64,000 nucleotides of DNA. Source: Ranitomeya imitator (lineage: Eukaryota). The translations under genes and the position numbers were made by a program. The notes under the pieces are model-generated. The model was not told the origin of the DNA. It saw nothing but the letters and a program-made list of their open reading frames with translations, and did not search any database. Positions 37,449 to 64,000 of the stretch are shown one piece after another. The stretch lies in assembly GCF_032444005.1 (NCBI RefSeq), contig NC_091287.1:452538001-452602000 (forward strand), in the 5' to 3' direction. Each line of letters opens with the position of its first letter. Position 1 is the stretch's first letter.

Positions 37449-37487
37449 TATTTAACTCCACCTGGTGCTTTGATCCTGGCCTCCAGT
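37449..37487 (+). promoter_or_regulatory. LTR TATA box and predicted transcription start (self-primer)
   Basis: TATTTAA at 37449-37455. GGCCTCCAGT at 37478-37487 is the exact reverse complement of ACTGGAGGCC at 38117-38126, just after the LTR. Confidence 0.7.
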
Positions 37488-41200: not shown

Positions 41201-42514
41201 CCGGTCCCGAAGAGGCCTTGGACACATATCTTTATGGATTTTATTTCGGATCTCCCCGTCTCTCAAAGAATGTCGGTCATTTGGGTGGTTTGTGATCGCT
41301 TCTCTAAGATGGTCCATTTGGTGCCCTTGTCTAAATTGCCTTCCTCCTCTGATTTGGTGCCGTTGTTTTTCCAGCATGTGGTTCGTTTACATGGCATTCC
41401 AGAGAACATCGTTTCTGACAGAGGTTCCCAGTTTGTTTTGAGGTTTTGGCGAGCCTTTTGTGCTAGGATGGGCATTGATTTGTCTTTTTCCTCGGCTTTC
41501 CATCCTCAGACAAATGGCCAGACTGAACGAACCAATCAGACCTTGGAAACATATCTGAGATGTTTTGTTTCTGCTGATCAGGATGATTGGGTGTCCTTTT
41601 TGCCTTTGGCGGAGTTCGCCCTTAATAATCGGGCCAGCTCGGCTACTTTGGTTTCGCCGTTTTTCTGCAATTCTGGATTCCACCCTCGTTTCTCTTCAGG
41701 GCAGGTTGAGTCTTCGGACTGTCCTGGTGTGGATACTGTGGTGGATAGGTTGCAGCAGATTTGGACTCATGTAGTGGACAATCTGACTTTGTCCCAGGAG
41801 AAGGCTCAACGTTTCGCTAACCGCAGGTACTGTGTGGGTCCCCGACTTCGTGTTGGTGATTTGGTTTGGTTGTCATCTCGTTATATTCCTATGAAGGTTT
41901 CCTCTCCTAAATTTAAGCCTCGTTTCATTGGTCCATATAGGATTTCTGAGGTTCTTAATCCTGTGTCTTTTCGTTTGACTCTTCCAGCTTCTTTTTCCAT
42001 CCATAACGTGTTCCATAGGTCATTGTTGAGGAGATACGTGGCACCTGTGGTTCCATCTATTGATCCTCCTGCTCCGGTTTTGGTTGAAGGGGAATTGGAG
42101 TATATAGTGGAGAAGATTTTGGATTCTCGTGTTTCGAGACGGAAACTCCAGTATCTGGTTAAGTGGAAAGGTTATGGTCAGGAAGATAATTCCTGGGTCT
42201 TTGCCTCTGATGTCCATGCTGCCGATCTGATTCGTGCCTTTCATGTGGCTCATCCTGGTCGGCCTGGGGGCTCTGGTGAGGGTTCGGTGACCCCTCCTCA
42301 AGGGGGGGGTACTGTTCTGAATTTTGTGGCCAAGCTCCCTCCTGTGGTCGAGAGTGGTACTTCGGCTGGTTCTGTCTATGAGCTTCCTTTGGTGGATGAG
42401 AGTGGTACTGCGGCTTCTGAGTTTCCTTCCTCAGGTGATGAGGTTAAGTCGTTAGGTGCTGCTCTATTTAACTCCACCTGGTGCTTTGATCCTGGCCTCC
42501 AGTCAATGTTCTAG
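38255..42514 (+). CDS. Chromovirus gag-pol polyprotein, one frame with a single premature TAG at 38621-38623
   Basis: Gag (ELFSGDRAKF), CCHC knuckle CFYCGDSTHAISDC, protease FVDSGA, RT VYLDD, RNase H, integrase H..H/C..C plus D,D,E, and chromodomain EYIVEKILDSR..YLVKWKGYGQEDNSWV. ORFs 38195-38623 and 38687-42514 share a frame. Confidence 0.93.
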
Positions 42515-43104
42515 TATTGGTCTTGCTTCCTCCTGGATCGTTCCTGTGGCCTGTCTATCCTGCATAAGCTAAGTTTTGCTTGTGTTATTTTTGTTTGCTA
42601 TTTTTTCTGTCCAGCTTGCTATATTGGTTTTTCTTGCTTGCTGGAAGCTCTGAGACGCAGAGGGAGCACCTCCGTACCGTTAGTCGGTGCGGAGGGTCTT
42701 TTTGCCCCTCTGCGTGGTTGTTTGTAGGTTTTTGTGTTGACCGCAAAGCTATCTTTCCTATACTCGGTCTATTCAGTAAGTCGGGCCTCACTTTGCTAAA
42801 TCTATTTCATCTCTGTGTTTGTATTTTCATCTTTACTCACAGTCATTATATGTGGGGGGCTGCCTTTTCCTTTGGGGAATTTCTCTGAGGCAAGGTAGGC
42901 TAATTTTTCTATCTTCAGGGCTAGTTAGTTTATCAGGCAATCCACGGCTACCTCTAGTGTGGTGTGATAGGATTAGGGATTGCGGTCAGCAGAGTTCCCA
43001 CGTCTCAGAGCTCGTCCTATGTTTTTGGTAATTGTCATGTCACTTTGTGTGCTCTGAACTTCAATGTCCATTGTGGTACTGAATTACCTGTTCATAACAG
43101 CCAT

Positions 43105-46100
43105 ACACACAAGGATGGCGATGAGGAACCATGCATACAAGGATGGGAATAAGGAACCAAGCATACAAGGATGGGAACAAGGAGCCATGCATACAAGGAT
43201 GGGAATAAGGAACCAAGCATACAAGGATGGGAATAAGGAGCCATGCATACAAGGATGGGAACAAGGAGCCATGCATACAAGGATGGGGATAAGGAACCAT
43301 GCATACAAGGATGGTAATAAGGAGCCATGCATACAAGGATGGGAATAAGGAGCCATGCAGACAAGGATGGGAACAAGGAGCCATGCAGACAAGGATGGGA
43401 ACAAGGAGCCATGCATACAAGGATGGGGATAAGGAGCCATGCAGACAAGGATGGGAATAAGGAGCTATGCAGACAAGGATGGGGATAAGGAGCCATGCAT
43501 ACAAGGATGGGAATAAGGAGCCATGCAGACAAGGATGGGAACAAGGAGCCATGCATACAAGGATGGGGATAAGGAGCCATGCATATAAGGATGGGGATAA
43601 GGAGCCATGCAGACAAGGATGGGAATAAGGAGCCATGCAGACAAAGATGGGAATAAGGAGCCATGCACACAAGGATTGGAATAAGGAGCCATGCAAACAA
43701 GGATGGGGATAAGGAGCCATGCAGACAAGGATGGGAATAAGGAGCCATGCAGACAAGGATGGGGATAAGGGGCCATGCAGACAAGGATGGGAATAAGGAG
43801 CCATGCAGACAAGGATGGTGATAAGGGGCCATGCAGACAAGGATGGTGATAAGGGGCCATGCAGACAAGGATGGGAATAAGGAACCATGCATACAAGGAT
43901 GGGAATAAGGAGCCATGCATACAAGGATGGGAACAAGGAGCTATGCATACAAGGATGGGGATAAGGAACCATGCATACAAGGATGGGAATAAGGAGCCAT
44001 GCAGACAAGGATGGGAACAAGGAGCCATGCATACAAGGATGGGGATAAGGAGCCATGCAGACAAGGATGGGAATAAGGAGCCATGCAGACAAGGATGGGG
44101 ATAAGGAGCCATGCAGACAAGGATTGGAATAAGGAGCCATGCATACACGGATGGGGATAAGGAGCCATGCAGACAAGGATGGGGATAAGGGGCCATGCAG
44201 ACAAGGATGGGAATAAGGAGCCATGCAGACAAGGATGGGGATAAGGGGCCATGCAGACAAAGATGGGAATAAGGAGCCATGCAGACAAGGATGGGGATAA
44301 GGAGCCATGCAGACAAGGATGGGAATAAGGAGCCATGCATACAAGGATGGGAATAAGGAGCCATGCATACCAGGATGGGAATAAGGAGCCATGCAGACAA
44401 GGATGGGGATAAGGAGAAATGCATACCAGGATGGGAATAAGGAGCCATGCAGACAAGGATGGGGATAAGGAGCCATGCATACCAGTATGGGAATAAGGAG
44501 CCATGCTGACAAGGATGGGGATATGTTGCCATGCAGACAAGGATAGGGATAAGGAGCCATGCAGACAAGGATGGGAATAAGGAGCCATGCATACAAGGAT
44601 GGGGATGAGTAGCCATGCATACAAGGATGAGGATAAGTAGCCATGCAAACAAGATTGGGAATAAGGAGCCATGCATACAAGGAAGGGAATAAAGAGCCAT
44701 ACATACAAGGATGGGGATGAAGAACCATGCAGACAAGAATGGGAATAAGTAGCCATGCAGACAAGGATGGGAATAAGCAGCCATGCATACAAGGATGGGG
44801 ATAAGAATGGGAATAAGGAGCCATGCATACAAGGATGGGAATAAGGAGCCATGCATACCAGGATGGGAATAAGGAGCCATGCAGACAAGGATGGGGATAA
44901 GGAGAAATGCATACCAGGATGGGAATAAGGAGCCATGCAGACAAGGATGGGGATAAGGAGCCATGCATACCAGTATGGGAATAAGGAGCCATGCTGACAA
45001 GGATGGGGATATGTTGCCATGCAGACAAGGATAGGGATAAGGAGCCATGCAGACAAGGATGGGAATAAGGAGCCATGCATACAAGGATGGGGATGAGTAG
45101 CCATGCATACAAGGATGAGGATAAGTAGCCATGCAAACAAGATTGGGAATAAGGAGCCATGCATACAAGGAAGGGAATAAAGAGCCATACATACAAGGAT
45201 GGGGATGAAGAACCATGCAGACAAGAATGGGAATAAGTAGCCATGCAGACAAGGATGGGAATAAGCAGCCATGCATACAAGGATGGGGATAAGAATGGGA
45301 ATAAGGAGCCATGCATACAAGGATGGGAATAAGGAGCCATGCAGACAAGGATGGGAATAAGGAGCCATGAAAACAAGGATGGGAATATGGAGCCATGCAG
45401 ACAAAGATGGGGATAAGGAGCCATTCATGCAAGGATAGGAATAAGGAGCTATGGATGCAAGGATGGGAATAAGTAGCCATGCATACAAGGATGGGGATAA
45501 TGAGCCATGCATACAAGGATGGGAATAAGGAGCCATGCAGACAAAGATGGGGATAAGGAGCCATTCATGCAAGGATGGGAATAAGGAGCTATGCATGCAA
45601 GGATGGGAATAAGGAGCCATGCAGACAAGGATGGGGATAAGGAGCCATGCATACAAGGATGGGAATAAGGAGCCATGCATACAAGGATGGGAATAAAGAG
45701 CCATGCAGACAAGGATGGGGATAAGGAGCCATGAAAACAAGGAAGGGAATATGGAGCCATGCAGACAAAGATGGGGATAAGGAGCCATTCATGAAAGGAT
45801 GGGAATAAGGAGCTATGCATACAAGGATAGGGATAAGGAGCCATGCATACAAGGATGGGGATAAGGAGCCATGCAGACAAGGATGGGGATAAGGAGCCAT
45901 GAAAACAAGGATGGGAATATGGAGCCACGCAGACAAAGATGGGGATAAGGACCATTCATGCAAGGATGGGAATAAGGAGCTATGCATGCAAGGATGGGAA
46001 TAAGTAGCCATGCATACAAGGATGGGGATAAGGAGCCATGCATACAAGGATGGGAATAAGGAGCCATGCATACAAGGATGGGAATAAGGAGCCATGCAGA

Positions 46101-47305
46101 CAAGGATGGGAATAAGGAGCCATGAAAACAAGGATGGGAATATGGAGCCATGCAGACAAAGATGGGGATAAGGAGCCATTCATGCAAGGATGGGAATAAG
46201 GAGCTATGCATGCAAGGATGGGAATAAGTAGCCATGCATACAAGGATGGGGATAATGAGCCATGCATACAAGGATGGGAATAAGGAGCCATGCAGACAAA
46301 GATGGGGATAAGGAGCCATTCATGCAAGGATGGGAATAAGGAGATATGCATGCAAGGATGGGAATAAGGAGCCATGCAGACAAGGATGGGGATAAGGAGC
46401 CATGAAAACAAGGATGGGAATATGGAGCCATGCAGACAAAGATGGGGATATGGAGCCATTCATGCAAGGATGGGAATAAAGAGCTATGCATGCAAGGATG
46501 GGAATAAGTAGGCATGCATACAAGGATGGGGATAAGGAGCCATGCATACAAGGATGGGAATAAGGAGCCATGCATACAAGGATGGGGATAAGGAGCCATG
46601 CATACAAGGATGGGGATAAGGAGCTATGCATGCAAGGATGGGAATAAGTAGCCATGCATACAAGGATGGGGATAAGGAGCCATGCATACAAGGATGGGGA
46701 TAAGGAGCTATGCAGACAAGGATGGGGATAAGGAGCCATGAAAACAAGGATGGGAATATGGAGCCATGCAGACAAAGATGGGGATAAGGAGCCATTCATG
46801 CAAGGATGGGAATAAGGAGCTATGCATGCAAGGATGGGAATAAGGAGCCATGCAGACAAGGATGGGGATAAGGAGCCATGAAAACAAGGATGGGAATATG
46901 GAGCCATGCAGACAAAGATGGGGAAAAGGAGCCATTCATGCAAGGATGGGAATAAGGAGCTATGCATGCAAGGATGGGAATAAGGAGCCATGCAGACAAG
47001 AATGGGGATAAGGAGCCATGCATACAAGGATGGGAATAAGGAGCCATGCATACAAGGATGGGGATAAGGAGCCATGCATACAAGGACGGGGATAAGGAGC
47101 CATGCAGACAAAGATGGGGATAAGGAGCCATGCATGCAAGGATGGGAATAAGGAGCCATGCATACAAGGATGGGCCTAAGGAGCCATGCATACAAGGATG
47201 GGGATATGTTTCCATGCAGACAAGGATGGGAATAAGGAGCCATGCATACAAGGGTGGCAATAAGTAGCCATGCATAACAGAATGGGGATTGGGGGACAAT
47301 GCATA
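43105..47305. repeat. 28-bp minisatellite array 1, about 150 units
   Basis: Consensus GG(A/G)ATAAGGAGCCATGCA(G/T)ACAAGGATG, with variant units arranged in higher-order patterns. Confidence 0.97.
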
Positions 47306-47594
47306 CCCAGCTTATACTCGAGTCAATAAGTTTTCCCAGTTTTTCAAGGCAAAATTAGGTGCCTCGGCTTATATTTCGGTCTGCTTATACACAAGTGTAT
47401 ATGGTATAAATAAATATTTTCAGCTCCCCCAGTCTATTACATGATAGTTGCAGATTGGACAGCATTTTCATGGTGACAGGTTCCATTTAAAAGAAATTTA
47501 TCAGCCCAAAATGACTGCTCAAACCAAATACAGGCGTTCGGTGCACCCTTGGTGTGGCCAAACAGTTTGGTGCACCTTTTACCCTTTTACCAAT

Positions 47595-50500
47595 TATTTA
47601 TTCCCTTAATGAGCGCAGGAGCTGCTGGCACCTGAATGAGATGCTGCATGTGAAGGTAAGTAGGATGGTTTTTTTCTGCCTTTCTCATGGGGGGCCATAC
47701 ACACAAGGATGGGGATGATGAACCATGCAGACAAGGATGGGAATAAGGAGCCATGCAGACAAGGATGGGAACAAGGAGCCATGCATACAAGGATGGGAAT
47801 AAGCAGCCATGCAGACAAGGATTTGGAAAAGCAGCCATGCAGACAAGGATGGGGATAAGGAGCCATGCAGACAAGGATTGGAATAAGGAGCCATGCAGAC
47901 AAGGATGGGGATAAGGAGCCATGCAGACAAGGATTGGAATAAAGAGCCATGCAGACAAGGATGGGAATAAGGAGCCATTCATGCAAGGATGGGAATAAGG
48001 AGGTATGCATGCAAGGATGGGAATAAGTAGCCATGCATACAAGGATGGGGATGAGGAGCCATGCATACAAGGATGGCAATAAGGAGCCATGCAGACGAGG
48101 ATGGGAATAAGGAGCCATGCAGACAAGGATGGGGATAAGGAGCCATGAAAACAAGGATGGGAATATGGAGCCATGCAGACAAAGATGGGGATAAGGACCA
48201 TTCATGCAAGAATGGGAATAAGGAGCTATGCATGTGTCACGATATGGTATGAAATATCATAAGTTTAGTTGCTCGTCAGCTCATGAGGTGGGCTAAACCC
48301 CCCCTTCACTAGCTGACTCTACTTGTTTCTCTCTGGGCTACGGACTGTATGCTAGAAGGGGGTTTAATTGCCCTGGGGTCGTAAATTCCAGGCTCAGAGG
48401 AAAGTCCCTCACCCCTCCCACCTTCACTAGTCAGAACTGGTAAAGTGGCTCCAAAATTCATGAAAGATCCTTTGTTTGGTTTTGGTACGATATTATGCAC
48501 CATGTTTACGGTAAGAACACGAAAATATATATTCGTATTCCCACTCGGTGTAGGTACCCATCCCTTGAAACTCGGGCTTCTAACTCCGTCTGGTAAAGAA
48601 GTAGGGTTTTCTCTGTAAATATGTATCCCAGATAGGACATATTTGATCTCATTAGAATGCTCACGTTAACCCGAGATGATTGATGGGTTTGTTAGAACTA
48701 TGACGTGTTTTGTAGTGAAGTTATAGAAATTAGCGAGAATAGTTTAAAGTTTAGGCAGAATGTAGAGAGAGGAGGGTCTGGATAAGTCAGCCTTTCTGTG
48801 ATGTCACAGCCTTAAGGGTTTAAGTGTCTGGCAGGCTCTGAGGAGGCACTCTTCTGCTGATGTCTCCTTCTGGACTGCTTGTCTTCTGAAGCCAGCAGCA
48901 CGTCCAAATGAGCTGGGACATATGGAAAAACTCCACTAGCCTGGATGCCTGTCATGCTTTAAACATGTGAGTGTTGCTTTTCTCATTTATTCCCTTTATG
49001 TTATAATTACCCATGTACATATTTGCAATTGTCTCATTTGTAACATCTTTATAAACTATTTTTGATAAAGCCCTGCCTAATTATTTTTAATGGGATATAC
49101 TATTATATGTTAGTTCTTCTCCATGCTCTAAAAACCGTACCCTAAGTCTTCTGAAGTGAAATACGCTACTGTTACTGTTGAGTTGGGTTAGCTTCGGACC
49201 CGTTTAATCGAAGCTGGTGGCAGCGAAAGTGTGCTGACTGTTGGATTATGCTGAAGCAACTGCGGGTTTGATAATTATTGTTCCTGCCTGAGTGGGAGTA
49301 GTTATCGCGTCGCTGCAGCGTGCCCAATAGCCAGTACATAGCAGGCAGCCTTTCTGGCGACTAATTACCCAGGGTGCAGTACCTAATCTGACCTGAGAGT
49401 AAGGGGGGCGCCAGAGAGCTGCAAGTGTTAAGGGGAACTGTAAGCGGGATATACATAAATCCCTGCAGTTCGTGGTATATAGAAAAGCAGTGGGATACCT
49501 AGAATAAGCCCCTGCTGTTAACTAAGAGGTCAATAGCCTTGTGTGTGGTTTTTCATCACATCGTGGAGTGGAGGGATAACTAAGATAAGCCCCCCTGCAC
49601 ATGTGATAGCCGTCTGTTGGTCTAAAGTCACCTCAATCCGTGACGTAGGGGTGACGGTCACGGTGTGAATCCTGACCCATTGGTGACAGTGGTCAGGGGA
49701 ATCGTGACAGCATGCAAGGATGGGAATAAGTAGCCATGCATACAAGGATGGGGATAAGGAGCCATGCATACAAGGACGGGGATAAGGAGCCATGCAGACA
49801 AAGATGGGAATAAGGAACCAAGCATACAAGGATGGGAATAAGGAGCCATTCATGCAAGGATGGGAATAAGGAGCCATGCAGACAAGAATGGGGATAAGGA
49901 GCCATGCATACAAGGACGGGGATAAGGAGCCATGCAGACAAAGATGGGGATAAGGAGCCATGCATGCAAGGATGGGAATAATGAGCCATGCAGACAAAGA
50001 TGGGGATAAGGAGCCATTCATGCAAGGATGGGAATAAGGAGCTATGGATGCAAGGATGGGAATAAGTAGCCATGCATACAAGGATGGGGATAATGAGCCA
50101 TGCATACAAGGATGGGAATAAGGAGCCATGCAGACAAAGATGGGGATAAGGAGCCATTCATGCAAGGATGGGAATAAGGAGCTATGCATGCAAGGATGGG
50201 AATAAGGAGCCATGCAGACAAGGATGGGGATAAGGAGCCATGCATACAAGGATGGGAATAAGGAGCCATGCATACAAGGATGGGAATAAAGAGCCATGCA
50301 GACAAGGATGGGGATAAGGAGCCATGAAAACAAGGAAGGGAATATGGAGCCATGCAGACAAAGATGGGGATAAGGAGCCATTCATGAAAGGATGGGAATA
50401 AGGAGCTATGCATACAAGGATAGGGATAAGGAGCCATGCATACAAGGATGGGGATAAGGAGCCATGCAGACAAGGATGGGGATAAGGAGCCATGAAAACA

Positions 50501-52187
50501 AGGATGGGAATATGGAGCCACGCAGACAAAGATGGGGATAAGGACCATTCATGCAAGGATGGGAATAAGGAGCTATGCATGCAAGGATGGGAATAAGTAG
50601 CCATGCATACAAGGATGGGGATAAGGAGCCATGCATACAAGGATGGGAATAAGGAGCCATGCATACAAGGATGGGAATAAGGAGCCATGCAGACAAGGAT
50701 GGGAATAAGGAGCCATGAAAACAAGGATGGGAATATGGAGCCATGCAGACAAAGATGGGGATAAGGAGCCATTCATGCAAGGATGGGAATAAGGAGCTAT
50801 GCATGCAAGGATGGGAATAAGTAGCCATGCATACAAGGATGGGGATAATGAGCCATGCATACAAGGATGGGAATAAGGAGCCATGCAGACAAAGATGGGG
50901 ATAAGGAGCCATTCATGCAAGGATGGGAATAAGGAGATATGCATGCAAGGATGGGAATAAGGAGCCATGCAGACAAGGATGGGGATAAGGAGCCATGAAA
51001 ACAAGGATGGGAATATGGAGCCATGCAGACAAAGATGGGGATATGGAGCCATTCATGCAAGGATGGGAATAAAGAGCTATGCATGCAAGGATGGGAATAA
51101 GTAGGCATGCATACAAGGATGGGGATAAGGAGCCATGCATACAAGGATGGGAATAAGGAGCCATGCATACAAGGATGGGGATAAGGAGCCATGCATACAA
51201 GGATGGGGATAAGGAGCTATGCATGCAAGGATGGGAATAAGTAGCCATGCATACAAGGATGGGGATAAGGAGCCATGCATACAAGGATGGGGATAAGGAG
51301 CTATGCAGACAAGGATGGGGATAAGGAGCCATGAAAACAAGGATGGGAATATGGAGCCATGCAGACAAAGATGGGGATAAGGAGCCATTCATGCAAGGAT
51401 GGGAATAAGGAGCTATGCATGCAAGGATGGGAATAAGGAGCCATGCAGACAAGGATGGGGATAAGGAGCCATGAAAACAAGGATGGGAATATGGAGCCAT
51501 GCAGACAAAGATGGGGAAAAGGAGCCATTCATGCAAGGATGGGAATAAGGAGCTATGCATGCAAGGATGGGAATAAGGAGCCATGCAGACAAGAATGGGG
51601 ATAAGGAGCCATGCATACAAGGATGGGAATAAGGAGCCATGCATACAAGGATGGGGATAAGGAGCCATGCATACAAGGACGGGGATAAGGAGCCATGCAG
51701 ACAAAGATGGGGATAAGGAGCCATGCATGCAAGGATGGGAATAAGGAGCCATGCATACAAGGATGGGCCTAAGGAGCCATGCATACAAGGATGGGGATAT
51801 GTTTCCATGCAGACAAGGATGGGAATAAGGAGCCATGCATACAAGGGTGGCAATAAGTAGCCATGCATAACAGAATGGGGATTGGGGGACAATGCATACC
51901 CAGCTTATACTCGAGTCAATAAGTTTTCCCAGTTTTTCAAGGCAAAATTAGGTGCCTCGGCTTATATTTCGGTCTGCTTATACACAAGTGTATATGGTAT
52001 AAATAAATATTTTCAGCTCCCCCAGTCTATTACATGATAGTTGCAGATTGGACAGCATTTTCATGGTGACAGGTTCCATTTAAAAGAAATTTATCAGCCC
52101 AAAATGACTGCTCAAACCAAATACAGGCGTTCGGTGCACCCTTGGTGTGGCCAAACAGTTTGGTGCACCTTTTACCCTTTTACCAAT
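47595..52187. repeat. Tandem macro-unit 2 (4593 bp): spacer, satellite, solo LTR, satellite, transposon ends
   Basis: About 45390-49700 recurs at +4593, as shown by identical ORF translations at 45449/50042, 47587/52180 and 48309/52902. The re-entry point TATTTATTCCCTTAATGAGC occurs at 37192, 47595, 52188 and 61521. Confidence 0.92.
48235..49709 (+). mobile_element. Solo LTR of the Gmr1-type element, 1475 bp
   Basis: TGTCACGAT...ATCGTGACA with TSD GCATG (48230-48234, 49710-49714). It matches the 3' LTR (59359-60833) at every diagnostic site I checked. Confidence 0.96.
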
Positions 52188-54518
52188 TATTTATTCCCTT
52201 AATGAGCGCAGGAGCTGCTGGCACCTGAATGAGATGCTGCATGTGAAGGTAAGTAGGATGGTTTTTTTCTGCCTTTCTCATGGGGGGCCATACACACAAG
52301 GATGGGGATGATGAACCATGCAGACAAGGATGGGAATAAGGAGCCATGCAGACAAGGATGGGAACAAGGAGCCATGCATACAAGGATGGGAATAAGCAGC
52401 CATGCAGACAAGGATTTGGAAAAGCAGCCATGCAGACAAGGATGGGGATAAGGAGCCATGCAGACAAGGATTGGAATAAGGAGCCATGCAGACAAGGATG
52501 GGGATAAGGAGCCATGCAGACAAGGATTGGAATAAAGAGCCATGCAGACAAGGATGGGAATAAGGAGCCATTCATGCAAGGATGGGAATAAGGAGGTATG
52601 CATGCAAGGATGGGAATAAGTAGCCATGCATACAAGGATGGGGATGAGGAGCCATGCATACAAGGATGGCAATAAGGAGCCATGCAGACGAGGATGGGAA
52701 TAAGGAGCCATGCAGACAAGGATGGGGATAAGGAGCCATGAAAACAAGGATGGGAATATGGAGCCATGCAGACAAAGATGGGGATAAGGACCATTCATGC
52801 AAGAATGGGAATAAGGAGCTATGCATGTGTCACGATATGGTATGAAATATCATAAGTTTAGTTGCTCGTCAGCTCATGAGGTGGGCTAAACCCCCCCTTC
52901 ACTAGCTGACTCTACTTGTTTCTCTCTGGGCTACGGACTGTATGCTAGAAGGGGGTTTAATTGCCCTGGGGTCGTAAATTCCAGGCTCAGAGGAAAGTCC
53001 CTCACCCCTCCCACCTTCACTAGTCAGAACTGGTAAAGTGGCTCCAAAATTCATGAAAGATCCTTTGTTTGGTTTTGGTACGATATTATGCACCATGTTT
53101 ACGGTAAGAACACGAAAATATATATTCGTATTCCCACTCGGTGTAGGTACCCATCCCTTGAAACTCGGGCTTCTAACTCCGTCTGGTAAAGAAGTAGGGT
53201 TTTCTCTGTAAATATGTATCCCAGATAGGACATATTTGATCTCATTAGAATGCTCACGTTAACCCGAGATGATTGATGGGTTTGTTAGAACTATGACGTG
53301 TTTTGTAGTGAAGTTATAGAAATTAGCGAGAATAGTTTAAAGTTTAGGCAGAATGTAGAGAGAGGAGGGTCTGGATAAGTCAGCCTTTCTGTGATGTCAC
53401 AGCCTTAAGGGTTTAAGTGTCTGGCAGGCTCTGAGGAGGCACTCTTCTGCTGATGTCTCCTTCTGGACTGCTTGTTTTCTGAAGCCAGCAGCACGTCCAA
53501 ATGAGCTGGGACATATGGAAAAACTCCACTAGCCTGGATGCCTGTCATGCTTTAAACATGTGAGTGTTGCTTTTCTCATTTATTCCCTTTATGTTATAAT
53601 TACCCATGTGCATATTTGCAATTGTCTCATTTGTAACATCTTTATAAACTATTTTTGATAAAGCCCTGCCTAATTATTTTTAATGGGATATACTATTATA
53701 TGTTAGTTCTTCTCCATGCTCTAAATACTATACCCTAAGTCTTCTGAAGTGAAATACGCTACTGTTACTGTTGAGTTGGGTTAGCTTCGGACCCGTTTAA
53801 TCGAAGCTGGTGGCAGCGAAAGTGTGCTGACTGTTGGATTATGCTGAAGCAACTGCGGGTTTGATAATTATTGTTCCTGCCTGAGTGGGAGTAGTTATCG
53901 CGTCGCTGCAGCGTGCCCAATAGCCAGTACATAGCAGGCAGCCTTTCTGGCGACTAATTACCCAGGGTGCAGTACCTAATCTGACCTGAGAGTAAGGGGG
54001 GCGCCAGAGAGCTGCAAGTGTTAAGGGGAACTGTAAGCGGGATATACATAAATCCCTGCAGTTCGTGGTATATAGAAAAGCAGTGGGATACCTAGAATAA
54101 GCCCCTGCTGTAAACTAAGAGGTCAATAGCCTTGTGTGTGGTTTTTCATCACATCGTGGAGTGGAGGGATAACTAAGATAAGTCCCCCTGCACATGTGAT
54201 AGCCATCTGTTGGCCTAAAGTCACCTCAATCCGTGACGTAGGAGTGACGGTCACGGTGTGAATCCTGACCCATTGGTGACAGCGGTCAGGGGAATCGTGA
54301 CAATTGGTGGCAAGGCGGTGGGATATCTTAGAGCATTAGTGATTTGGTTTGAGTAATCATTCCTCTCACTAAAAACTTGCAGAAAGTTCTTGCGAGGACT
54401 CTGCGCAAATAAGTTTGGAGAACGAACTCAGTGCTTTTTAGTTGTGAGACAATTGCGTACTGGTAATTATCCCTTCCCTTTCTCTTCGTTTTTCTATCCT
54501 ATCTTTTATTTGGCAACC

Positions 54519-56786
54519 ATGGCTGCGAAAGGGGAAGCCTGGTACAACCAGCAGAAGAAGGACTTTCTTGCTGGGATATGCACGTGCCATGGCCTGAACC
54601 CCCAGGGCAAGACCAAGGCTCAAATGGTCGCTGAACTGGTGCAATTTGAAGCAGACCAAGCCAGGCCACAGAGCCCAGAGGCCGCAGAAGCCAGCACAAG
54701 CGAACATGGTGCTGCAGCAGAGGTCCAACCACTGAATACGGGCCCTACTGACAACCAGGGGGGTGCAGACCTCCTCCTGCAGCTGGCTCTGCAACAATGC
54801 TCCGCAGATGACCTAGAGAGGCGTCTGCAGCTGATCCAGCAATACCAGGAGCCAGCCGAGCGAGAGGCCGAGCGGGAGGCTGAGAGAGCCGAGCGCCAAG
54901 CCCAGCGAGCACATGAACTGGAGATGCTCCGGCAGGGGGGGATGCCCTCCACCGCCCAGAGACGTGAGCCCACCAGCGCTCAGATACCTAAGCCCCGGCC
55001 CGATCACTTTCCTGTTATGGAGAAGGACGGGGACTTGGACACTTTTCTGCGGGCCTTTGAGAAAGCCTGCAGGCAGTACCAGCTACCTACAGATGAATGG
55101 GCCCGATACCTGACACCAGGGCTGAGAGGTAAAGCTCTGGAGGCGTTTGCTGCCCTCCCTCAAGAACAAGATGGTGACTATGAGGCCATCAAAAAGGCTC
55201 TGATAGCCAAGTACCAGCTTACACCCGAGGTGTACCGTAGAAAGTTCCGGACCCTCCAACGTGGCCCACACGACAGTTACAGTGATGTGGTGCATGGACT
55301 GGGGACCCACTTTGACCAGTGGACCCAAGGACTGTCAGTGACCACCTTTGCACAGCTGCGAGACCTGATGATCAAAGACCAGTTCTTTCATCTTTGCCCA
55401 GCTGAGGTGCGACAGTTCGTGATGGACAGAGAACCCAAAGACGTGACGAAAGCAGCACAGATTGCCGATGCCTATGAGGCCAACCGTAGATCGGAAGGGC
55501 GGAAGCCAATCACCACCAGCTGGAGAGGGGGTAAGCCTGCAACCAACGCCAGTACCCCTGCCAGCCAACACACCAGAGGTCCTGGCCCCGTGGCCAACAG
55601 CACCAGACCGACCACCGAACCTCGCACGTGTTACACCTGCCATCAGACTGGTCATATCAGTCTCTCCTGCCCAACCAAGCAGAAGAACACCCAAGCCAAG
55701 GCCCCAGGGCCTAATGCAGCAGTTCTTTTGGTGGGTGGTGTGGTTGGGAGGGTGTGTGACAACGTACAGCACGTCACTGTGGGAGGCCATGTTGCTACAG
55801 GCCTCAAGGACACCGGGGCTGAACGAACCCTCATCCGACCCGAACTGGCGGCCCCTGAAGAAATCATTCCGGGGAAAACCCTAACTGTCACTGGGATTGG
55901 GGGCATCAGCTGTCCCTTACCGATGGCCCGGGTTTTTATTGATTGGGGTGCCGGGAGCGGGGTGAAGGAAGTGGGGCTGTCTGATAATTTGCCCACTGAT
56001 GTTTTGTTGGGGACTGATTTGGGGAGGATGGTTGCATACTACGTCCCTGACACCCCTCCCCAATCTACTAATAAGGGTAAAGTTAACCCTGATGATGATG
56101 ATGATGATGGGAAATCGCATGTGTTACCTGACCATGCTTTATCTTGTAATGATGCATCGATTAACCATTTTTTCCCTAGGATTGATGGTGAAAATGTTGT
56201 ACCTGTGCCAGCTGAACCTGATCATGATTTTTCTGTGAAGGTTAATGTGTCCATAGGTACAGGCGTGCCCAGCCACGTCGCTCTGCGAAGTGAGACGGCT
56301 GAGGAACCCCTAACAGGGGCAAGTGTCGGTGCTACAAGAAATGGGGAGATGCATGGGAACCGTGAGGAAGGTGACGCCATGAAAGTGACCAGTGCCACCG
56401 AGGAAGGTAACTGGCCCATAAGTAGCACTGCCCCTGAAGTGTTGGGGGTGGATGGGGAGGTAGAGCCCATAGCAGCGCCGGCGGATGGGCCTTTAGAAAT
56501 CCCCGGGGAGACAGCCTACGTAGCTGCTGTCACCCGCAGTCAGAGTGCCCGGAACGCAGATAACTGTCGGCCTTCCGGACCCTCCTCAGTCATTACTGTG
56601 ACTGAACCAGAGGTGGACCCAGAGCAGGTCCAAGAGGGTTCCCGTGGGGAAGGGACCCTGACGTCGCTTCTGGCTTCCCCTAGCCAGGAGTTTCAGGCCG
56701 CTCTGCACACAGATGCGAGCCTAGAGAGTTTGAGACAACTTGCCGGGACGCCCTTCTCCGAGACTGATAAGGAGAAGGTGTTCTGA
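54519..56786 (+). CDS. Gmr1 gag (SCAN-like capsid, CCHC knuckle) plus protease, ending at a premature TGA
   Basis: FLRAFEKAC..EWARYLTPGLRGKALEAF..YRRKFR..DLMIKDQF, CYTCHQTGHISLSC, and LKDTGA. TGA at 56784-56786 sits in frame with the integrase that follows. Confidence 0.9.
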   Translation: MAAKGEAWYNQQKKDFLAGICTCHGLNPQGKTKAQMVAELVQFEADQARPQSPEAAEASTSEHGAAAEVQPLNTGPTDNQGGADLLLQLALQQCSADDLERRLQLIQQYQEPAEREAEREAERAERQAQRAHELEMLRQGGMPSTAQRREPTSAQIPKPRPDHFPVMEKDGDLDTFLRAFEKACRQYQLPTDEWARYLTPGLRGKALEAFAALPQEQDGDYEAIKKALIAKYQLTPEVYRRKFRTLQRGPHDSYSDVVHGLGTHFDQWTQGLSVTTFAQLRDLMIKDQFFHLCPAEVRQFVMDREPKDVTKAAQIADAYEANRRSEGRKPITTSWRGGKPATNASTPASQHTRGPGPVANSTRPTTEPRTCYTCHQTGHISLSCPTKQKNTQAKAPGPNAAVLLVGGVVGRVCDNVQHVTVGGHVATGLKDTGAERTLIRPELAAPEEIIPGKTLTVTGIGGISCPLPMARVFIDWGAGSGVKEVGLSDNLPTDVLLGTDLGRMVAYYVPDTPPQSTNKGKVNPDDDDDDGKSHVLPDHALSCNDASINHFFPRIDGENVVPVPAEPDHDFSVKVNVSIGTGVPSHVALRSETAEEPLTGASVGATRNGEMHGNREEGDAMKVTSATEEGNWPISSTAPEVLGVDGEVEPIAAPADGPLEIPGETAYVAAVTRSQSARNADNCRPSGPSSVITVTEPEVDPEQVQEGSRGEGTLTSLLASPSQEFQAALHTDASLESLRQLAGTPFSETDKEKVF

Positions 56787-56798
56787 GAACAAGGAAGG

Positions 56799-58010
56799 TT
56801 GTACCGGGAGACAGTACCCGGAGAATCACAAAAGGAGTGGTTGAGGGAAAGACAGCTGGTCGTCCCGCAGCAATTCCGGGGTGAGTTGTTGCGGATTGCC
56901 CATGAGATCCCGCTAGCTGGACACTTGGGGATCAGCAAAACTAAGGCCCGGCTGTCTCAACACTTCTATTGGCCTAAGATGGGGACAGATGTGTCAAACT
57001 ACTGCCGCTCCTGTATCACTTGTCAAAGAGTGGGGAAGGTGGGGCCTGCTCTTAAGGCTCCCCTGATCCCTTTGCCAGTGATAGAGGAGCCTTTCCAGAG
57101 GATCGCGGTGGACATTGTGGGCCCGCTGGCCGTCCCCAGCAGCTCTGGAAAGCAATATATCCTTACTGTGGTAGACTACGCTACCCGGTACCCAGAGGCA
57201 GTAGCTCTGTCGTCAACTAGGGCAGATAAGGTGGCGGGTGCCCTGTTGGCTATCTTTTCAAGTGTAGGATTTCCCAGGGAAATGCTTACTGATCAAGGGA
57301 CCCAATTTATGTCTCGCCTAATGGAGGCTCTCTGTAAGAAAATGCAGGTGAAGCACCTGGTATCGAGTGCGTATCACCCACAGACCAATGGCTTGTGTGA
57401 ATGCTTCAATGGTACCCTCAAACAGATGCTAAGCATGCTGGTTGAGACTCAAGGGCGTGACTGGGAGCGGTACCTCCCACACCTGCTGTTCGCTTACCGA
57501 GAGGTTCCGCAGGCCTCGACGGGGTTCTCCCCCTTCGAGCTCCTGTACGGCAGGCGAGTCCGGGGACCCCTTGGGTTGGTAAGAGAATCCTGGGAAGAGG
57601 AGCCGAACCCTTCTGAAGTGTCCATAGTGGAGCGGACCTACCACGTAGGTCAAAAGGTGTGGGTGCTGGTCCCCGTACCAACGGATAAGCTTCAGGCAGC
57701 CTGGGAGGGCCCGTACGTCGTCCACCAACAGCTCAACCCGGTCACGTACGTGGTCACGCTTGACCACGCTCGGGGTAGGCAAAAGGCCTTTCACGTCAAC
57801 ATGATGAAGGCTCATCACGAACGTGAACCTTTCATCCTACCGGTCTGCAGCTTACCCGAAGACGGGGAGGAAGACACCCTCCTGGACTTGCTGGCCCAAG
57901 CCAAGGCCAATGGGTCCATCGAGGATGTGGAGGTAAGCGGGTGCAGTTGCAAACCACACTGGAACCCTTCCGGGCCGTATTCTCCAACCGACCTGGGAGG
58001 ACTGAGTTAG
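56799..58010 (+). CDS. Gmr1 integrase, located upstream of RT
   Basis: AHEIPLAGH..CRSCITC zinc finger; core AVDIVGP, LTDQG and GLCEC. An apparent deletion near 57632 and a frameshift near 57935 are inferred from family architecture. Confidence 0.9.
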   Translation: MYRETVPGESQKEWLRERQLVVPQQFRGELLRIAHEIPLAGHLGISKTKARLSQHFYWPKMGTDVSNYCRSCITCQRVGKVGPALKAPLIPLPVIEEPFQRIAVDIVGPLAVPSSSGKQYILTVVDYATRYPEAVALSSTRADKVAGALLAIFSSVGFPREMLTDQGTQFMSRLMEALCKKMQVKHLVSSAYHPQTNGLCECFNGTLKQMLSMLVETQGRDWERYLPHLLFAYREVPQASTGFSPFELLYGRRVRGPLGLVRESWEEEPNPSEVSIVERTYHVGQKVWVLVPVPTDKLQAAWEGPYVVHQQLNPVTYVVTLDHARGRQKAFHVNMMKAHHEREPFILPVCSLPEDGEEDTLLDLLAQAKANGSIEDVEVSGCSCKPHWNPSGPYSPTDLGGLS

Positions 58011-59338
58011 CAGTCCACGAGGTGGACACCGGGAATCACGCCCCACTACGGCGAACACCCTATCGAATCTCTGACCAGGTGCAGCAGACTATGCGCCAAG
58101 AGATCGATGAGATGTTACAGCTGGGGGTGATTCGACGGTCAAAGAGCACGTGGGCATCACCTGTAGTTCTCGTGCCAAAGAAGGACCGGACCACCCGGTT
58201 CTGCGTGGACTACAGGGGGCTCAACGCCATCACAGCCTCGGATGCGCACCCAATGCCGCGCATGGAGGAGCTGCTTGAGAAGTTAGCTGGCGCAGATTAC
58301 CTAACAATAATGGATCTGAGTCGAGGATACTGGCAGATTCCCCTGAGCCCTGAGGCACAGGAAAAGTCCGCCTTTATCACACCCTTTGGACTGTATGAGT
58401 CCACGGTCATGCCCTTCGGCATGAAGAATGCCCCTGCCACTTTCCAGCGGATGGTCAACCTCCTGCTTCAGGGACTGGAGACGTACGCCGTGGCGTACTT
58501 GGATGACATTGCCATCTTCAGTCCCTCCTGGAAGGAACACCTGCAGCATCTCGAGGAGGTGCTCAGGCGAATTCACCAAGCAGGACTGACTATCAAGCCG
58601 GGAAAGTGTCAGATGGGCATGAGGGAGGTTCACTACCTGGGGCACCGGGTAGGCGGGAACACCCTGAAGCCAGAGCCTGACAAAGTGGGAGTGATCGTGA
58701 ACTGGCCCACTCCCGTGACCAAGAAACAGGTGATGTCCTTCTTGGGCACTGCAGGGTACTATAGGCGCTTCGTAAAGCACTATAGTAGCCTGGCAAAACC
58801 TTTGACGGACCTCACCAGGAAGAAGCTACCTCACATTGATGGCTGTGAGGGGGCCTTCCAGGCGTTGAAAACTGCACTGTGCAACGCCCCTGTGTTGAAA
58901 GCAGTCGACAGCAGTCGACCGTTCTTGGTGCAGACCGACGCCAGCGAGTTTGGCCTTGGTGCTGTACTCAGCCAGGTTGACTCGGAGGACCAAGAGCACC
59001 CCGTGTTATACCTGAGCCGGAAACTTTTGCCGAGGGAAGTGGCCTACTCCACCATCGAGAAGGAGTGCCTGGCTATAGTCTGGGCCCTGCAGCGCTTGCA
59101 GCCCTACTTGTACGGTCACACCTTCATTGTGGTGACCGACCACAACCCTCTGCGCTGGCTAAATGCCATGTGTGGAACCAACGGCAGGTTGCTACGCTGG
59201 AGCCTTGCCCTTCAGCAGTTTGACTTCACCATTGAACATAAAACGGGCAAAGAGCATGGGAATGCAGATGGACTCTCCTGCCAGGGTGAACCTACTGAGG
59301 TGCCCATGGAGGCATACCGTGGGGTACTGCCTCCCTAG
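57941..59338 (+). CDS. Gmr1 reverse transcriptase and RNase H
   Basis: RFCVDYRGLN, MPFGMKNAPATFQR, AYLDD, QTDAS, EKECLA and VTDHNPL. The frame is shifted relative to the integrase. Confidence 0.93.
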   Translation: MQLQTTLEPFRAVFSNRPGRTELAVHEVDTGNHAPLRRTPYRISDQVQQTMRQEIDEMLQLGVIRRSKSTWASPVVLVPKKDRTTRFCVDYRGLNAITASDAHPMPRMEELLEKLAGADYLTIMDLSRGYWQIPLSPEAQEKSAFITPFGLYESTVMPFGMKNAPATFQRMVNLLLQGLETYAVAYLDDIAIFSPSWKEHLQHLEEVLRRIHQAGLTIKPGKCQMGMREVHYLGHRVGGNTLKPEPDKVGVIVNWPTPVTKKQVMSFLGTAGYYRRFVKHYSSLAKPLTDLTRKKLPHIDGCEGAFQALKTALCNAPVLKAVDSSRPFLVQTDASEFGLGAVLSQVDSEDQEHPVLYLSRKLLPREVAYSTIEKECLAIVWALQRLQPYLYGHTFIVVTDHNPLRWLNAMCGTNGRLLRWSLALQQFDFTIEHKTGKEHGNADGLSCQGEPTEVPMEAYRGVLPP

Positions 59339-61621
59339 CGCACACCAAAAGGGGGAGGTGTCACGATATGGTATGAAATATCATAAGTTTAGTTGCTCGT
59401 CAGCTCATGAGGTGGGCTAAACCCCCCCTTCACTAGCTGACTCTACTTGTTTCTCTCTGGGCTACGGACTGTATGCTAGAAGGGGGTTTAATTGCCCTGG
59501 GGTCGTAAATTCCAGGCTCAGAGGAAAGTCCCTCACCCCTCCCACCTTCACTAGTCAGAACTGGTAAAGTGGCTCCAAAATTCATGAAAGATCCTTTGTT
59601 TGGTTTTGGTACGATATTATGCACCATGTTTACGGTAAGAACACGAAAATATATATTCGTATTCCCACTCGGTGTAGGTACCCATCCCTTGAAACTCGGG
59701 CTTCTAACTCCGTCTGGTAAAGAAGTAGGGTTTTCTCTGTAAATATGTATCCCAGATAGGACATATTTGATCTCATTAGAATGCTCACGTTAACCCGAGA
59801 TGATTGATGGGTTTGTTAGAACTATGACGTGTTTTGTAGTGAAGTTATAGAAATTAGCGAGAATAGTTTAAAGTTTAGGCAGAATGTAGAGAGAGGAGGG
59901 TCTGGATAAGTCAGCCTTTCTGTGATGTCACAGCCTTAAGGGTTTAAGTGTCTGGCAGGCTCTGAGGAGGCACTCTTCTGCTGATGTCTCCTTCTGGACT
60001 GCTTGTCTTCTGAAGCCAGCAGCACGTCCAAATGAGCTGGGACATATGGAAAAACTCCACTAGCCTGGATGCCTGTCATGCTTTAAACATGTGAGTGTTG
60101 CTTTTCTCATTTATTCCCTTTATGTTATAATTACCCATGTACATATTTGCAATTGTCTCATTTGTAACATCTTTATAAACTATTTTTGATAAAGCCCTGC
60201 CTAATTATTTTTAATGGGATATACTATTATATGTTAGTTCTTCTCCATGCTCTAAAAACCGTACCCTAAGTCTTCTGAAGTGAAATACGCTACTGTTACT
60301 GTTGAGTTGGGTTAGCTTCGGACCCGTTTAATCGAAGCTGGTGGCAGCGAAAGTGTGCTGACTGTTGGATTATGCTGAAGCAACTGCGGGTTTGATAATT
60401 ATTGTTCCTGCCTGAGTGGGAGTAGTTATCGCGTCGCTGCAGCGTGCCCAATAGCCAGTACATAGCAGGCAGCCTTTCTGGCGACTAATTACCCAGGGTG
60501 CAGTACCTAATCTGACCTGAGAGTAAGGGGGGCGCCAGAGAGCTGCAAGTGTTAAGGGGAACTGTAAGCGGGATATACATAAATCCCTGCAGTTCGTGGT
60601 ATATAGAAAAGCAGTGGGATACCTAGAATAAGCCCCTGCTGTTAACTAAGAGGTCAATAGCCTTGTGTGTGGTTTTTCATCACATCGTGGAGTGGAGGGA
60701 TAACTAAGATAAGCCCCCCTGCACATGTGATAGCCGTCTGTTGGTCTAAAGTCACCTCAATCCGTGACGTAGGGGTGACGGTCACGGTGTGAATCCTGAC
60801 CCATTGGTGACAGTGGTCAGGGGAATCGTGACAGCATGCAAGGATGGGAATAAGTAGCCATGCATACAAGGATGGGGATAAGGAGCCATGCATACAAGGA
60901 CGGGGATAAGGAGCCATGCAGACAAAGATGGGAATAAGGAACCAAGCATACAAGGATGGGAATAAGGAGCCATTCATGCAAGGATGGGAATAAGGAGCCA
61001 TGCAGACAAGAATGGGGATAAGGAGCCATGCATACAAGGACGGGGATAAGGAGCCATGCAGACAAAGATGGGGATAAGGAGCCATGCATGCAAGGATGGG
61101 AATAATGAGCCATGCATACAAGGATGGGGATATGTTGCCATGCAGACAAGGATGGGAATAAGGAGCCATGCATACAAGGATGGGAATAAGTAGCCATGCA
61201 TAACAGAATGGGGATTGGGGGACAATGCATACCCAGCTTATACTCGAGTCAATAAGTTTTCCCAGTTTTTCAAGGCAAAATAAGGTGCCTCGGCTTATAT
61301 TTTGGTCTGCTTATACACAAGTGTATATGGTATAAATAAATATTTTCAGCTCCCCCAGTCTATTACATGATACTTGCAGATTGGACAGCATTTTCATGGT
61401 GACAGGTTCCATTTAAAAGAAATTTATCAGCCCAAAATGACTGCTCAAACCAAATACAGGCGTTCGGTGCACCCTTGGTGTGGCCAAACAGTTTGGTGCA
61501 CCTTTTACCCTTTTACCAATTATTTATTCCCTTAATGAGCGCAGGAGCTGCTGGCACCGGAATGAGATGCTGCAAGGGAAGGTAAGTAGGATGGTTTTTT
61601 TCTGCCTTTCTCATGGGGGGC

Positions 61622-64000
61622 CATACACACAAGGATGGGGATGAGGAACCATGCAGACAAGGATGGGAATAAGGAGCCATGCAGACAAGGATGGGACTAA
61701 GCAGTAATGCAGACAAGGATTGGGATAAGCAGCCATGCAGACAAGGATGGGGATAAGGAGCCATGCACACAAGGATTGGAATAAGGAGCCATGCAGACAA
61801 GGATGGGGATAAGGAGCCATGCAGACAAGGATTGGAATAAGGAGCCATGCAGACAAGGATTGGGATAAGCAGCCATGCAGACAAGGATGGGGATAAGGAG
61901 CCATGCACACAAGGATTGGAATAAGGAGCCATGCAGACAAGGATGGGGATAAGGAGCCATGCAGACAAGGATTGGAATAAGGAGCCATGCAGACAAGGAT
62001 GGGAATAAGGAGCCATGCAGACAAGGATTGGAATAAGGAGCCATGCAGACAAGGATGGGGATAAGGAGCCATGCAGAAAAGGATTGGAATAAGGAGCCAT
62101 GCAGACAAGGATGGGGATAAGGAGCCATGCAGACAAGGATTGGAATAAGGAGCCATGCAGACAAGGATGGGAATAAGGAGCCATGCAGACAAGGATTGGA
62201 ATAAGGAGCCATGCAGACAAGGATGGGAATAAGGAGCCATGCAGACAAGGATGGGGATAAGGAGCCATGCAGAAAAGGATTGGAATAAGGAGCCATGCAG
62301 ACAAGGATTAGAATAAGGAGCCATGCAGACAAGGATGGGGATAAGGAGCCATGCAGACAAGGATGGGGATAAGGAGCCATGCAGACAAGGATTGGAATAA
62401 GGAGCCATGCAGACAAGGATGGGAATAAGGAGCCATGCAGACAAGGATTAGAATATGGAGCCATGCAGACAAGGATGGGGATAAGGAGCCATGCATACAA
62501 GGATGAGAATAAGGAGCCATGCAGACGATGGGAATAAGGAGCCATGCAGACAAGGATGGGGATAAGGAGCCATGCAGACAAGGATTGGAATAAGGAGCCA
62601 TGCAGACAAGGATGGGAATAAGGAGCCATGCAGACAAGGATTAGAATAAGGAGCCATGCAGACAAGGATGGGGATAAAGAGCCATGCATACAAGGATGAG
62701 AATAAGGAGCCGTCATACAGGGATGGTAATAAGGAGCCGTGCATACAAGGATGGGAATAAGGAGCCATGCAGACAATGATGGGAATAAGGAGCCATGCAT
62801 ACAAGGATGGGTATAAGGAGCCATGCAGACAAGGATTGGAATAAGGAGCCATGCAGACAAGGATGGGGATGAGGAGCCATGCATACAAGGATGGGAATAA
62901 GGAGCCATGCAGACAAGGATGGGAATAAGAAGCCATGCAGACAAGGATGGGGATAAGGAGCCATGCATACAAGGATGGGAATAAGGAGCCATGCATACCA
63001 GGATGGGAATAAGGAGCCATACAGACAAGGATGGGGATAAGGAGCCATGCATACCAGGATGGGAATAAGGAGCCATGCAGACAAGGATGGGGATAAGGAG
63101 CCATGCATACCAGGATGGGAATAAGGAGCCATGCATACAAGGATGGGGATAAGGAGCCATGCAGACAAGGATGGAGATATGTTGCCATGCAGACAAGGAT
63201 GGGGATAAGGAGCCATGCATACAAGGATGGGAATAAGAAGCCATGGAGACAAGGATGGGAATAAGGAGCCATGCAGACAAGGATGGGAATAAGGAACCAT
63301 GCAGACAAGGATGGGAATAAGGGGCCATGCATACAAGGATGGGAATAAGGAGCCATGCATACAAGGATGGGAATAAGGAGCCATGCATACAAGGATGGGA
63401 ATAAGAAGCCATGCAGACGAGGATGGGAATAAGGAGCCATGCATACAAGGATGGGAATAAGGAGCCATGCATACAAGGATGGGAATAAGGAGCCATGCAT
63501 ACAAGGATGGGAATAAGAAGCCATGCAGACGAGGATGGGAATAAGGAGCCATGCATACAAGGATGGGAATAAGAAGCCATGCAGACGAGGATGGGAATAA
63601 GGAGCCATGCATACAAGGATGGGATTAAAAAGCCATGCAGACAAGGATGGGAATAAGGAGCCATGCAGACAAGGATGGGAATAAGGAGCCATGCAGACAA
63701 GGATGGGAATAAGGAGCCATGCATACAAGGATGGGAATAAGGAGCCATGCATACAAGGATGGGAATAAGGAGCCATGCATACAAGGATGGGAATAAGAAG
63801 CCATGCAGACGAGGATGGGAATAAGGAGCCATGCATACAAGGATGGGAATAAGGAGCCATGCATACAAGGATGGGAATAAGGAGCCATGCATACAAGGAT
63901 GGGAATAAGAAGCCATGCAGACGAGGATGGGAATAAGGAGCCATGCATACAAGGATGGGAATAAGAAGCCATGCAGACGAGGATGGGAATAAGGAGCCAT
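61622..64000. repeat. 28-bp minisatellite array in macro-unit 4, running off the window
   Basis: Same 28-bp consensus; shorter arrays also occur at 47700-48234, 49710-51898, 52293-52827 and 60834-61230. Confidence 0.97.

What the first reader, a model, noticed from the sequence alone, without database searches (positions are those of the whole stretch)
48235..60838. The same retrotransposon insertion present twice in tandem: solo LTR and full provirus
Seen: the solo LTR and the 8-kb element share the TSD GCATG, the left flank and about 280 bp of right flank. After the solo LTR the sequence follows unit 3 (offset 11124) until 49992, then switches to unit 1 satellite (offset 4593) from about 49983-50030. 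Inference: one integration gave a solo-LTR allele by LTR-LTR recombination, and unequal crossover within the satellite then joined that allele to the full-length one. The equally serious alternative is that the assembler concatenated two haplotypes, which would still mean a live solo/full-length polymorphism in prex2.
Basis: partly seen in the sequence, partly recalled or inferred. Interest (0 to 1): 0.7.

Follow-up and report, generated by a model that had tools for sequence, protein, structure and literature searches.

The report
One retrotransposon insertion site copied twice
In this frog genome assembly one jumping-gene insertion appears twice in a row, once whole and once cut down to its end repeat, likely through two ordinary recent recombination events, although an assembly error that joined the two parental chromosomes is nearly as likely.

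Summary
A solo LTR (48235-49709) and an 8,006-bp Gmr1-like LTR retrotransposon (52828-60833) share the TSD GCATG. Both integration junctions occur twice in the genome, both times here. The solo equals the 3' LTR at all 1,475 bases plus 283 bp of flank. It differs from the 5' LTR at 11 sites, all at LTR position 649 or later, so it derives from this very element after that element had aged. The site lies in a four-unit tandem array of a satellite-filled element, inside a 61.5-kb prex2 intron. The solo unit is a hybrid: head of unit U2, tail of unit U0, joined in register over 10 exact bases. The copies differ at 1 of 4,603 bases. The best reading is a real, very recent 4.6-kb duplication plus LTR-LTR deletion, order unknown (0.5). 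A gap-free false duplication of a solo/full heterozygote is close behind (0.4). The reads that decide this were not available. A living solo/full polymorphism is forced only under the artefact reading. All mechanisms are known. Interest is low.

The parts
48235..49709 (+). Solo LTR A (1,475 bp, TG...CA), no PBS or PPT beside it
   Evidence: identical to C at 1475/1475, 11 differences from B
48230..48234 (+). Target-site duplication GCATG, left of solo
49710..49714 (+). Target-site duplication GCATG, right of solo
49710..49992 (+). 283 bp of right flank identical to 60834-61116
49983..49992 (+). Switch point: 10 exact bases shared by both registers, inside a ~200-bp in-register block about 86% alike
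   Evidence: 41-mer across it unique in genome
45390..49992 (+). Left copy of the duplicated segment (U0 tail, spacer, U2-type head, solo LTR, flank); 1 difference in 4,603 bp from its counterparts
49983..52827 (+). Second copy of U0 satellite tail, spacer and left flank
52828..54302 (+). 5' LTR B, followed by PBS; 8 changes rare or absent in other copies
54357..56786 (+). ORF1: gag with SCAN domain, then a protease-like part (by eye); ends at an in-frame stop
56787..58010 (+). Integrase frame (H2C2, rve, p58_C), upstream of RT; short deletion near 57630 relative to another copy
57827..59338 (+). RT and RNase H frame, out of frame with integrase (break near 57935); PPT follows
59359..60833 (+). 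3' LTR C, followed by TSD GCATG 60834-60838
37192..47597 (.). Array unit U0 (28-bp satellite 43099-47290, end of host element, 193 bp flank); holds a second LTR element at 37297-43099
47595..52190 (.). Array unit U1, the new hybrid: U2 head + solo + U0 tail
52188..61523 (.). Array unit U2, carrying the 8-kb element
61521..64000 (.). Array unit U3 (runs on to base 579 of L031, then unique flank)
25242..25412 (-). prex2 exon (residues 1051-1107) that bounds the 61.5-kb intron holding the locus; the exon before it lies about 23 kb beyond the window end

Best explanation
One Gmr1-like LTR retrotransposon insertion site is present twice, 4.6 kb apart, once as a solo LTR and once as the 8-kb element, likely because a recent unequal exchange in the surrounding satellite duplicated the site and recombination between the two LTRs likely deleted the interior of one copy. 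Shown: there is one target site. The 5' and 3' LTRs differ at 11 sites. The solo is the 3' LTR from position 649 on, and the first 648 bases are the same in all three LTRs. Unit U1 is U2 head plus U0 tail. The copies differ at 1 of 4,603 bases. Inferred: (1) the element integrated into one satellite unit of U2; (2) it aged in place; (3) an LTR-LTR crossover fell somewhere in the 648 identical bases; (4) an in-register exchange between the U2 right flank and the U0 satellite resolved at 49983-49992. Steps 3 and 4 are both very recent, about 3% (upper bound 16%) of the age implied by the LTR pair. Their order cannot be read from this sequence. The product is likely neutral intronic DNA.
For: [quoted passage not shown] The switch is not where a false overlap is easiest: U2 and U0 ends are in register over about 800 bp, with 6 differences over the ~450-bp spacer. 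The join instead uses a ~200-bp block about 86% alike with 10 exact bases. Base quality looks high: the satellite anchors are nearly all 28 bp or a multiple apart, with only one 27 and one 29 among the six arrays. The locus has duplicated this unit before, as the older spacers differ by 1.3-1.8%. The satellite also holds a 537-bp exact stretch repeated at offset 488. The family recombines between LTRs elsewhere. Of 27 other LTR hits, 5 are solos with a 5-bp TSD and 2 are shared middle LTRs. A five-LTR array on C5 has units 99.8-100% alike and no N in the three stretches read. No unplaced copy of the spacer or of either junction was found.
Against: It needs two recent events at one site. The artefact needs only one, and a heterozygous 6.5-kb indel is itself a known setting for false duplication. 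The duplicated segment neatly encloses the solo/full difference. PMC9516828 also reports false duplications joined without a gap by wrong gap filling. Near-identity of the copies is what either reading predicts. No read or contig was shown to cross the switch. All 20 runs listed are short-read-style contigs. The two DNA runs of the best sample differ from the assembly at 12 of 415 flank bases, so they are not this haplotype. The near-identical C5 array could itself be an assembler product.
Confidence: 0.5

Rival explanations
1. False heterotype duplication. The animal is heterozygous, solo on one chromosome and full-length on the other. The assembly kept both sides of the bubble in series and closed the join through the satellite. 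The only biology is a recent solo-LTR allele.
For: It needs only one recent biological event. The duplicated segment encloses the indel and ends in repeats on both sides. 61-92% of the false duplications left in long-read vertebrate assemblies were on the same scaffold, and some were joined without a gap (PMC9516828 passages). A recent solo/full pair with the same TSD and identical LTRs is on record in mouse (PMC8084528 passages).
Against: There is no N at the join. The join avoids the best overlap. The two haplotypes would have to be 0.02% apart, while another sample's flank differs by 2.9%; however, one other run matches the assembly at 620 of 620 laid bases, so near-identical haplotypes exist.
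Confidence: 0.4
2. One repair or replication event with successive template switches made both junctions at once: forward from the 5' LTR to the 3' LTR, then back from the right flank to the U0 satellite.
For: It explains why both junctions are equally young. The first 64 bases after the switch (49983-50046) match another register (offset -3838) exactly, so a third short switch is possible.
Against: One base change at 45437 explains the same detail more simply. There are no inserted bases. Two ordinary exchanges give the same product.
Confidence: 0.08
3. Two independent insertions hit matching satellite units, and one later became a solo LTR.
For: The target motif recurs in the satellite: the first 60 bases of the right flank also occur at 45984.
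Against: The solo carries all three changes that distinguish C from B and has 0 differences from C. The nearest other copy differs from it at 15 sites. Kilobases of flank are identical.
Confidence: 0.01

Closest known systems
Solo-LTR/full-length dimorphism by inter-LTR recombination, e.g. mouse Iap5-1solo and Iap5-1full (PMC8084528, passages read)
   Same: Same TSD around the solo and the full element; solo identical to a parent LTR; recent origin.
   Different: There the two forms are alleles in different animals. Here they stand in series on one assembled chromosome with 3.1 kb of host DNA between them.
HERV-K108 at 7p22.1, listed as provirus, tandem repeat and solo LTR (PMC3228705, table row read); shared-LTR tandems (bioRxiv 10.1101/158386, passages read)
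   Same: One integration gives an allelic series by LTR recombination.
   Different: Those tandems share a middle LTR and hold no host DNA. Here host flank and both TSDs are duplicated, so the duplicating exchange was outside the element.
False heterotype duplication in genome assemblies (PMC9516828, passages read)
   Same: Near-identical adjacent copies around a possible heterozygous indel, on the same scaffold.
   Different: No gap here; depth and read pairs could not be tested. The same paper reports a true allele-specific tandem duplication at haploid depth, so half depth alone does not decide.
Gmr1 clade of Ty3/Gypsy retrotransposons (PMC8220671 and PMC4131045, passages read)
   Same: Integrase upstream of RT; SCAN domain in gag; known from frogs.
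   Different: No phylogeny was run here; this copy is broken.
Unequal crossing over in tandem arrays that hold retrotransposons, maize P1-wr (PMC2686159, passages read)
   Same: Array expansion with LTR elements inside; a solo with identical TSDs read as intra-element recombination.
   Different: A gene array in a plant; the passages seen do not show solo and full forms of one site side by side.

Membership tests
Gmr1-like Ty3/Gypsy retrotransposon | Integrase upstream of reverse transcriptase | tested here: met
   rve in 56787-58010, RVT_1 and RNase H in 57827-59338; feature from PMC8220671
Gmr1-like Ty3/Gypsy retrotransposon | SCAN domain in gag (over half of frog Gmr elements) | tested here: met
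   PF02023, E 9.5e-11; PMC4131045
Gmr1-like Ty3/Gypsy retrotransposon | RT groups with Gmr1 in a tree | not tested
   Only Pfam hits were obtained
Endogenous retrovirus (provirus) | env gene and RT-before-integrase order | tested here: not met
   RT-RNase H frame ends at 59338 and the PPT follows; integrase comes first
Solo LTR from intra-element recombination | Whole LTR with the same TSD on both sides and no PBS or PPT | tested here: met
Solo LTR from intra-element recombination | Sequence explained by the parent 5' and 3' LTRs | tested here: met
   Equal to both over 1-648 and to the 3' LTR over 649-1475
Shared-LTR tandem element (K108 type) | Adjacent copies share an LTR, no host DNA between | tested here: not met
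   3,118 bp of host satellite and spacer lie between A and B
False heterotype duplication | Assembly gap between the copies | tested here: not met
   No N in 43000-64000; a filled gap cannot be seen
False heterotype duplication | Haploid read depth and no read support across the join | not testable with these tools
   Only contigs were served, and the DNA sample laid carries another haplotype
False heterotype duplication | Haplotype-specific k-mers in the copies | tested here: inconclusive
   One base (45437/50030) and the solo/full indel differ; no matching reads to count them
Tandem duplication by unequal exchange | Hybrid unit with an in-register junction in homologous sequence | tested here: met
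   U1 = U2 head + U0 tail by spacer alleles and registers
Tandem duplication by unequal exchange | Both copies on one DNA molecule | not testable with these tools
   Needs long reads of the assembled animal

The most novel reading that the evidence does not exclude
The arrangement is real and arose in one step: a single repair event switched template from 5' LTR to 3' LTR and then back into the upstream satellite, making a solo LTR without losing the parent element. The locus would be a natural snapshot of solo-LTR formation coupled to genome gain rather than loss, in a 6-Gb frog genome.
Probability: 0.08. Interest if true: 0.5.

Novelty: new member of a known kind. Interest (0 to 1): 0.2.

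Why it matters
If real, it is a tidy, datable case of LTR deletion and satellite-driven duplication acting on one site almost at once. Typing its alleles in a population would order the events. If false, it is a clean test case of a gap-free haplotype duplication and marks a recent solo-LTR allele. Neither changes what is known of these mechanisms. The site is deep in an intron, with no sign of an effect on prex2.

Tried and rejected
(1) Public reads. All 20 runs listed are contigs. Four were laid on the solo LTR with 30-bp flanks, but the family is so abundant that no listed piece spans the LTR and no allele private to this locus was listed. Four were laid on the last spacer and flank. There the unit end had contig depth 45 against 9.9 on the flank in X1, and 54-55 against 6.4 plus 5.2 in X2. 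That hints at several unit ends in that sample, but the tool states depth is no copy number and the sample has another haplotype, so it is not used as evidence. (2) The idea that the 5' LTR's right part came from another family copy is rejected. Its 899-903 variant is unique in the genome, and its best matches among 40 scored of 4,149 candidates are A and C. One of the three C-type changes is not private: the motif around position 1387 has 36 matches genome-wide. (3) One search's counts for minus-strand loci were invalid (not oriented) and were redone. (4) The inverted-repeat count (19 mismatches) was mis-registered; the match was read by eye. (5) No earlier scan note bore on this locus. (6) Six paper searches showed no listing that describes solo and full forms of one site in tandem with host flank. 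I saw listings and, for seven papers, passages only, with no supplements, so this is not proof of absence.

Full report
Observation. The window is G000:C6:452538001-452602000 of a 5.96-Gb genome. Three LTRs of 1,475 bp lie at 48235-49709 (A), 52828-54302 (B) and 59359-60833 (C). A has GCATG on both sides, B has it on the left and a PBS on the right, and C has a PPT on the left and GCATG on the right. A 5-bp TSD is the family norm: 5 of 27 other hits are solos with one, and 3 of 4 other elements with both ends in hand have one. A and C are identical over 48234-49992. The stretch 45390-48882 equals 49983-53475 but for one base. Each integration junction has two exact matches in the genome, both here.

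The element. It spans 52828-60833 (8,006 bp). Pfam finds SCAN in the first frame, integrase in the second, and RT with RNase H in the third. Integrase before RT is the mark of the Gmr1 clade (PMC8220671, passages), and SCAN was found in over half of frog Gmr elements (PMC4131045, passages). No env follows. The copy is broken by an in-frame stop at 56784-56786, a deletion near 57630 and a frame break near 57935. It is a retrotransposon, not a retroviral provirus; no tree was run.

Origin of the solo. B and C differ at 11 sites, all at LTR position 649 or later, and A follows C at all 11. Against 27 other copies, eight of the B bases occur in 0-1 copies and three of the C bases in 0-2. The B variant at 899-903 is unique in the genome, and B's right part matches A and C best. 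One C-type change is shared with other, more distant copies (36 matches). So the LTR pair most likely diverged in place, and the solo was made from this element afterwards. The crossover lies somewhere in the first 648 bases, where all three LTRs are the same. Two separate insertions are excluded.

The host. A 271-bp spacer occurs three times whole, with its last 81 bp at 37192 and its first 193 bp just past the window. This defines four tandem units: U0 37192-47597, U1 47595-52190, U2 52188-61523 and U3 61521 to L031:579. Each holds a 28-bp satellite and ends with the terminal inverted repeat of an element that starts near 37128 (read by eye, family name not tested). The U0, U2 and U3 spacers differ by 1.3-1.8%. 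U1 has the head alleles of U2 and the tail alleles of U0, so it is a hybrid. The switch lies at 49983-49992, ten exact bases inside a ~200-bp in-register block about 86% alike. The 41-mer across it is unique in the genome. The locus is in a 61.5-kb intron of prex2, on the opposite strand. The flanking exon is 100% identical to poison-frog PREX2 proteins.

Age. The copies differ at 1 of 4,603 bases (0.022%, upper 95% bound 0.12%), against 0.75% between B and C. Solo formation and duplication therefore fall in the last 3% (at most 16%) of the element's apparent age. This assumes the LTR differences are mutations in place and that rates are even, which the skew to positions 649 and later calls into question.

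Real or artefact. For real: there is no gap. The join avoids the far better overlap at the spacer. The satellite periods are clean. This unit has been duplicated before. LTR exchange is common in this family, including a five-LTR array with units 99.8-100% alike. For artefact: it needs one recent event instead of two, and the duplicated segment encloses the solo/full difference. False duplications in long-read assemblies were mostly on the same scaffold and sometimes gap-filled (PMC9516828, passages). Public data did not decide it. All 20 runs listed are contigs, the LTR signal is swamped by the family, and the DNA sample laid differs at 12 of 415 flank bases, while one other run matches at 620 of 620. 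The junction was not tested against reads. I put two ordinary exchanges at 0.5, artefact at 0.4 and one coupled event at 0.08.

Order and polymorphism. Solo first with a later exchange between alleles, duplication first with a later deletion, and a coupled event all give this sequence. A solo-only allele alive today is required only by the artefact reading.

Comparison and verdict. Solo/full dimorphism with shared TSDs is known (PMC8084528, passages). So are allelic series with tandems (PMC3228705, table row; bioRxiv 10.1101/158386, passages) and array expansion by unequal exchange (PMC2686159, passages). The side-by-side form with duplicated host flank did not appear in six searches (listings only), but it is a simple product of known steps. 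Verdict: new member of a known kind, or an assembly artefact; interest 0.2.

Noticed in passing
LTR pairs L003/L001, L008/L006, L017/L019: In 3 of 5 elements compared, 5'/3' LTR differences crowd beyond position 648 (11 of 11, 9 of 10, 10 of 11); the other two show no clear skew (2 of 4, 5 of 9). CpG counts (15 vs 23) do not explain it. Unexplained; conversion of the first half or faster change in the second half are options.
   Followed up: partly
G000:C5:404645012-404672905 (L051-L053): Five LTRs of this family at 6,720-bp spacing: a head-to-tail array of four units 99.8-100% alike, with no N in the stretches read.
   Followed up: partly
G000:C4:690782436-690797356 (L016, L023, L025): Two elements sharing a middle LTR, with matching outer 5-bp TSD; each LTR has its own changes. 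L011 is another middle LTR.
   Followed up: partly
L008 and L006 (G000:C4:285776822-285785026): The 5' and 3' LTRs of this element lack matching 5-bp flanks, as expected if two different insertions recombined.
   Followed up: no
window 37297-43099: A second, unrelated LTR retrotransposon sits at the start of unit U0. Its LTRs are about 800 bp, it is flanked by GCCATA on both sides, and it has one open frame of 1,296 codons at 38624-42514. Not classified.
   Followed up: no
window 37128-47405 and unit ends: The satellite lies inside an element with ~24-bp terminal inverted repeats flanked by TA (by eye); from recall this resembles frog Tc1/pogo-type MITEs. The array unit joins over a 3-bp overlap at 47595-47597.
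   Followed up: partly
window 44319-44855 and 63324-63608: Exact stretches repeated at offsets 488 and 392 inside the satellite: smaller recent duplications of the same kind.
   Followed up: no
window 36140-36349: The only N run (210 bases), 7 kb left of the satellite; mask and assembly gap cannot be told apart.
   Followed up: no
window 48205-49740, runs X17 and X18: Contigs laid on the LTR carry poly-T and what look like cDNA adapter ends (recalled), a hint that these are RNA libraries and that the family is transcribed. Locus not assignable.
   Followed up: no
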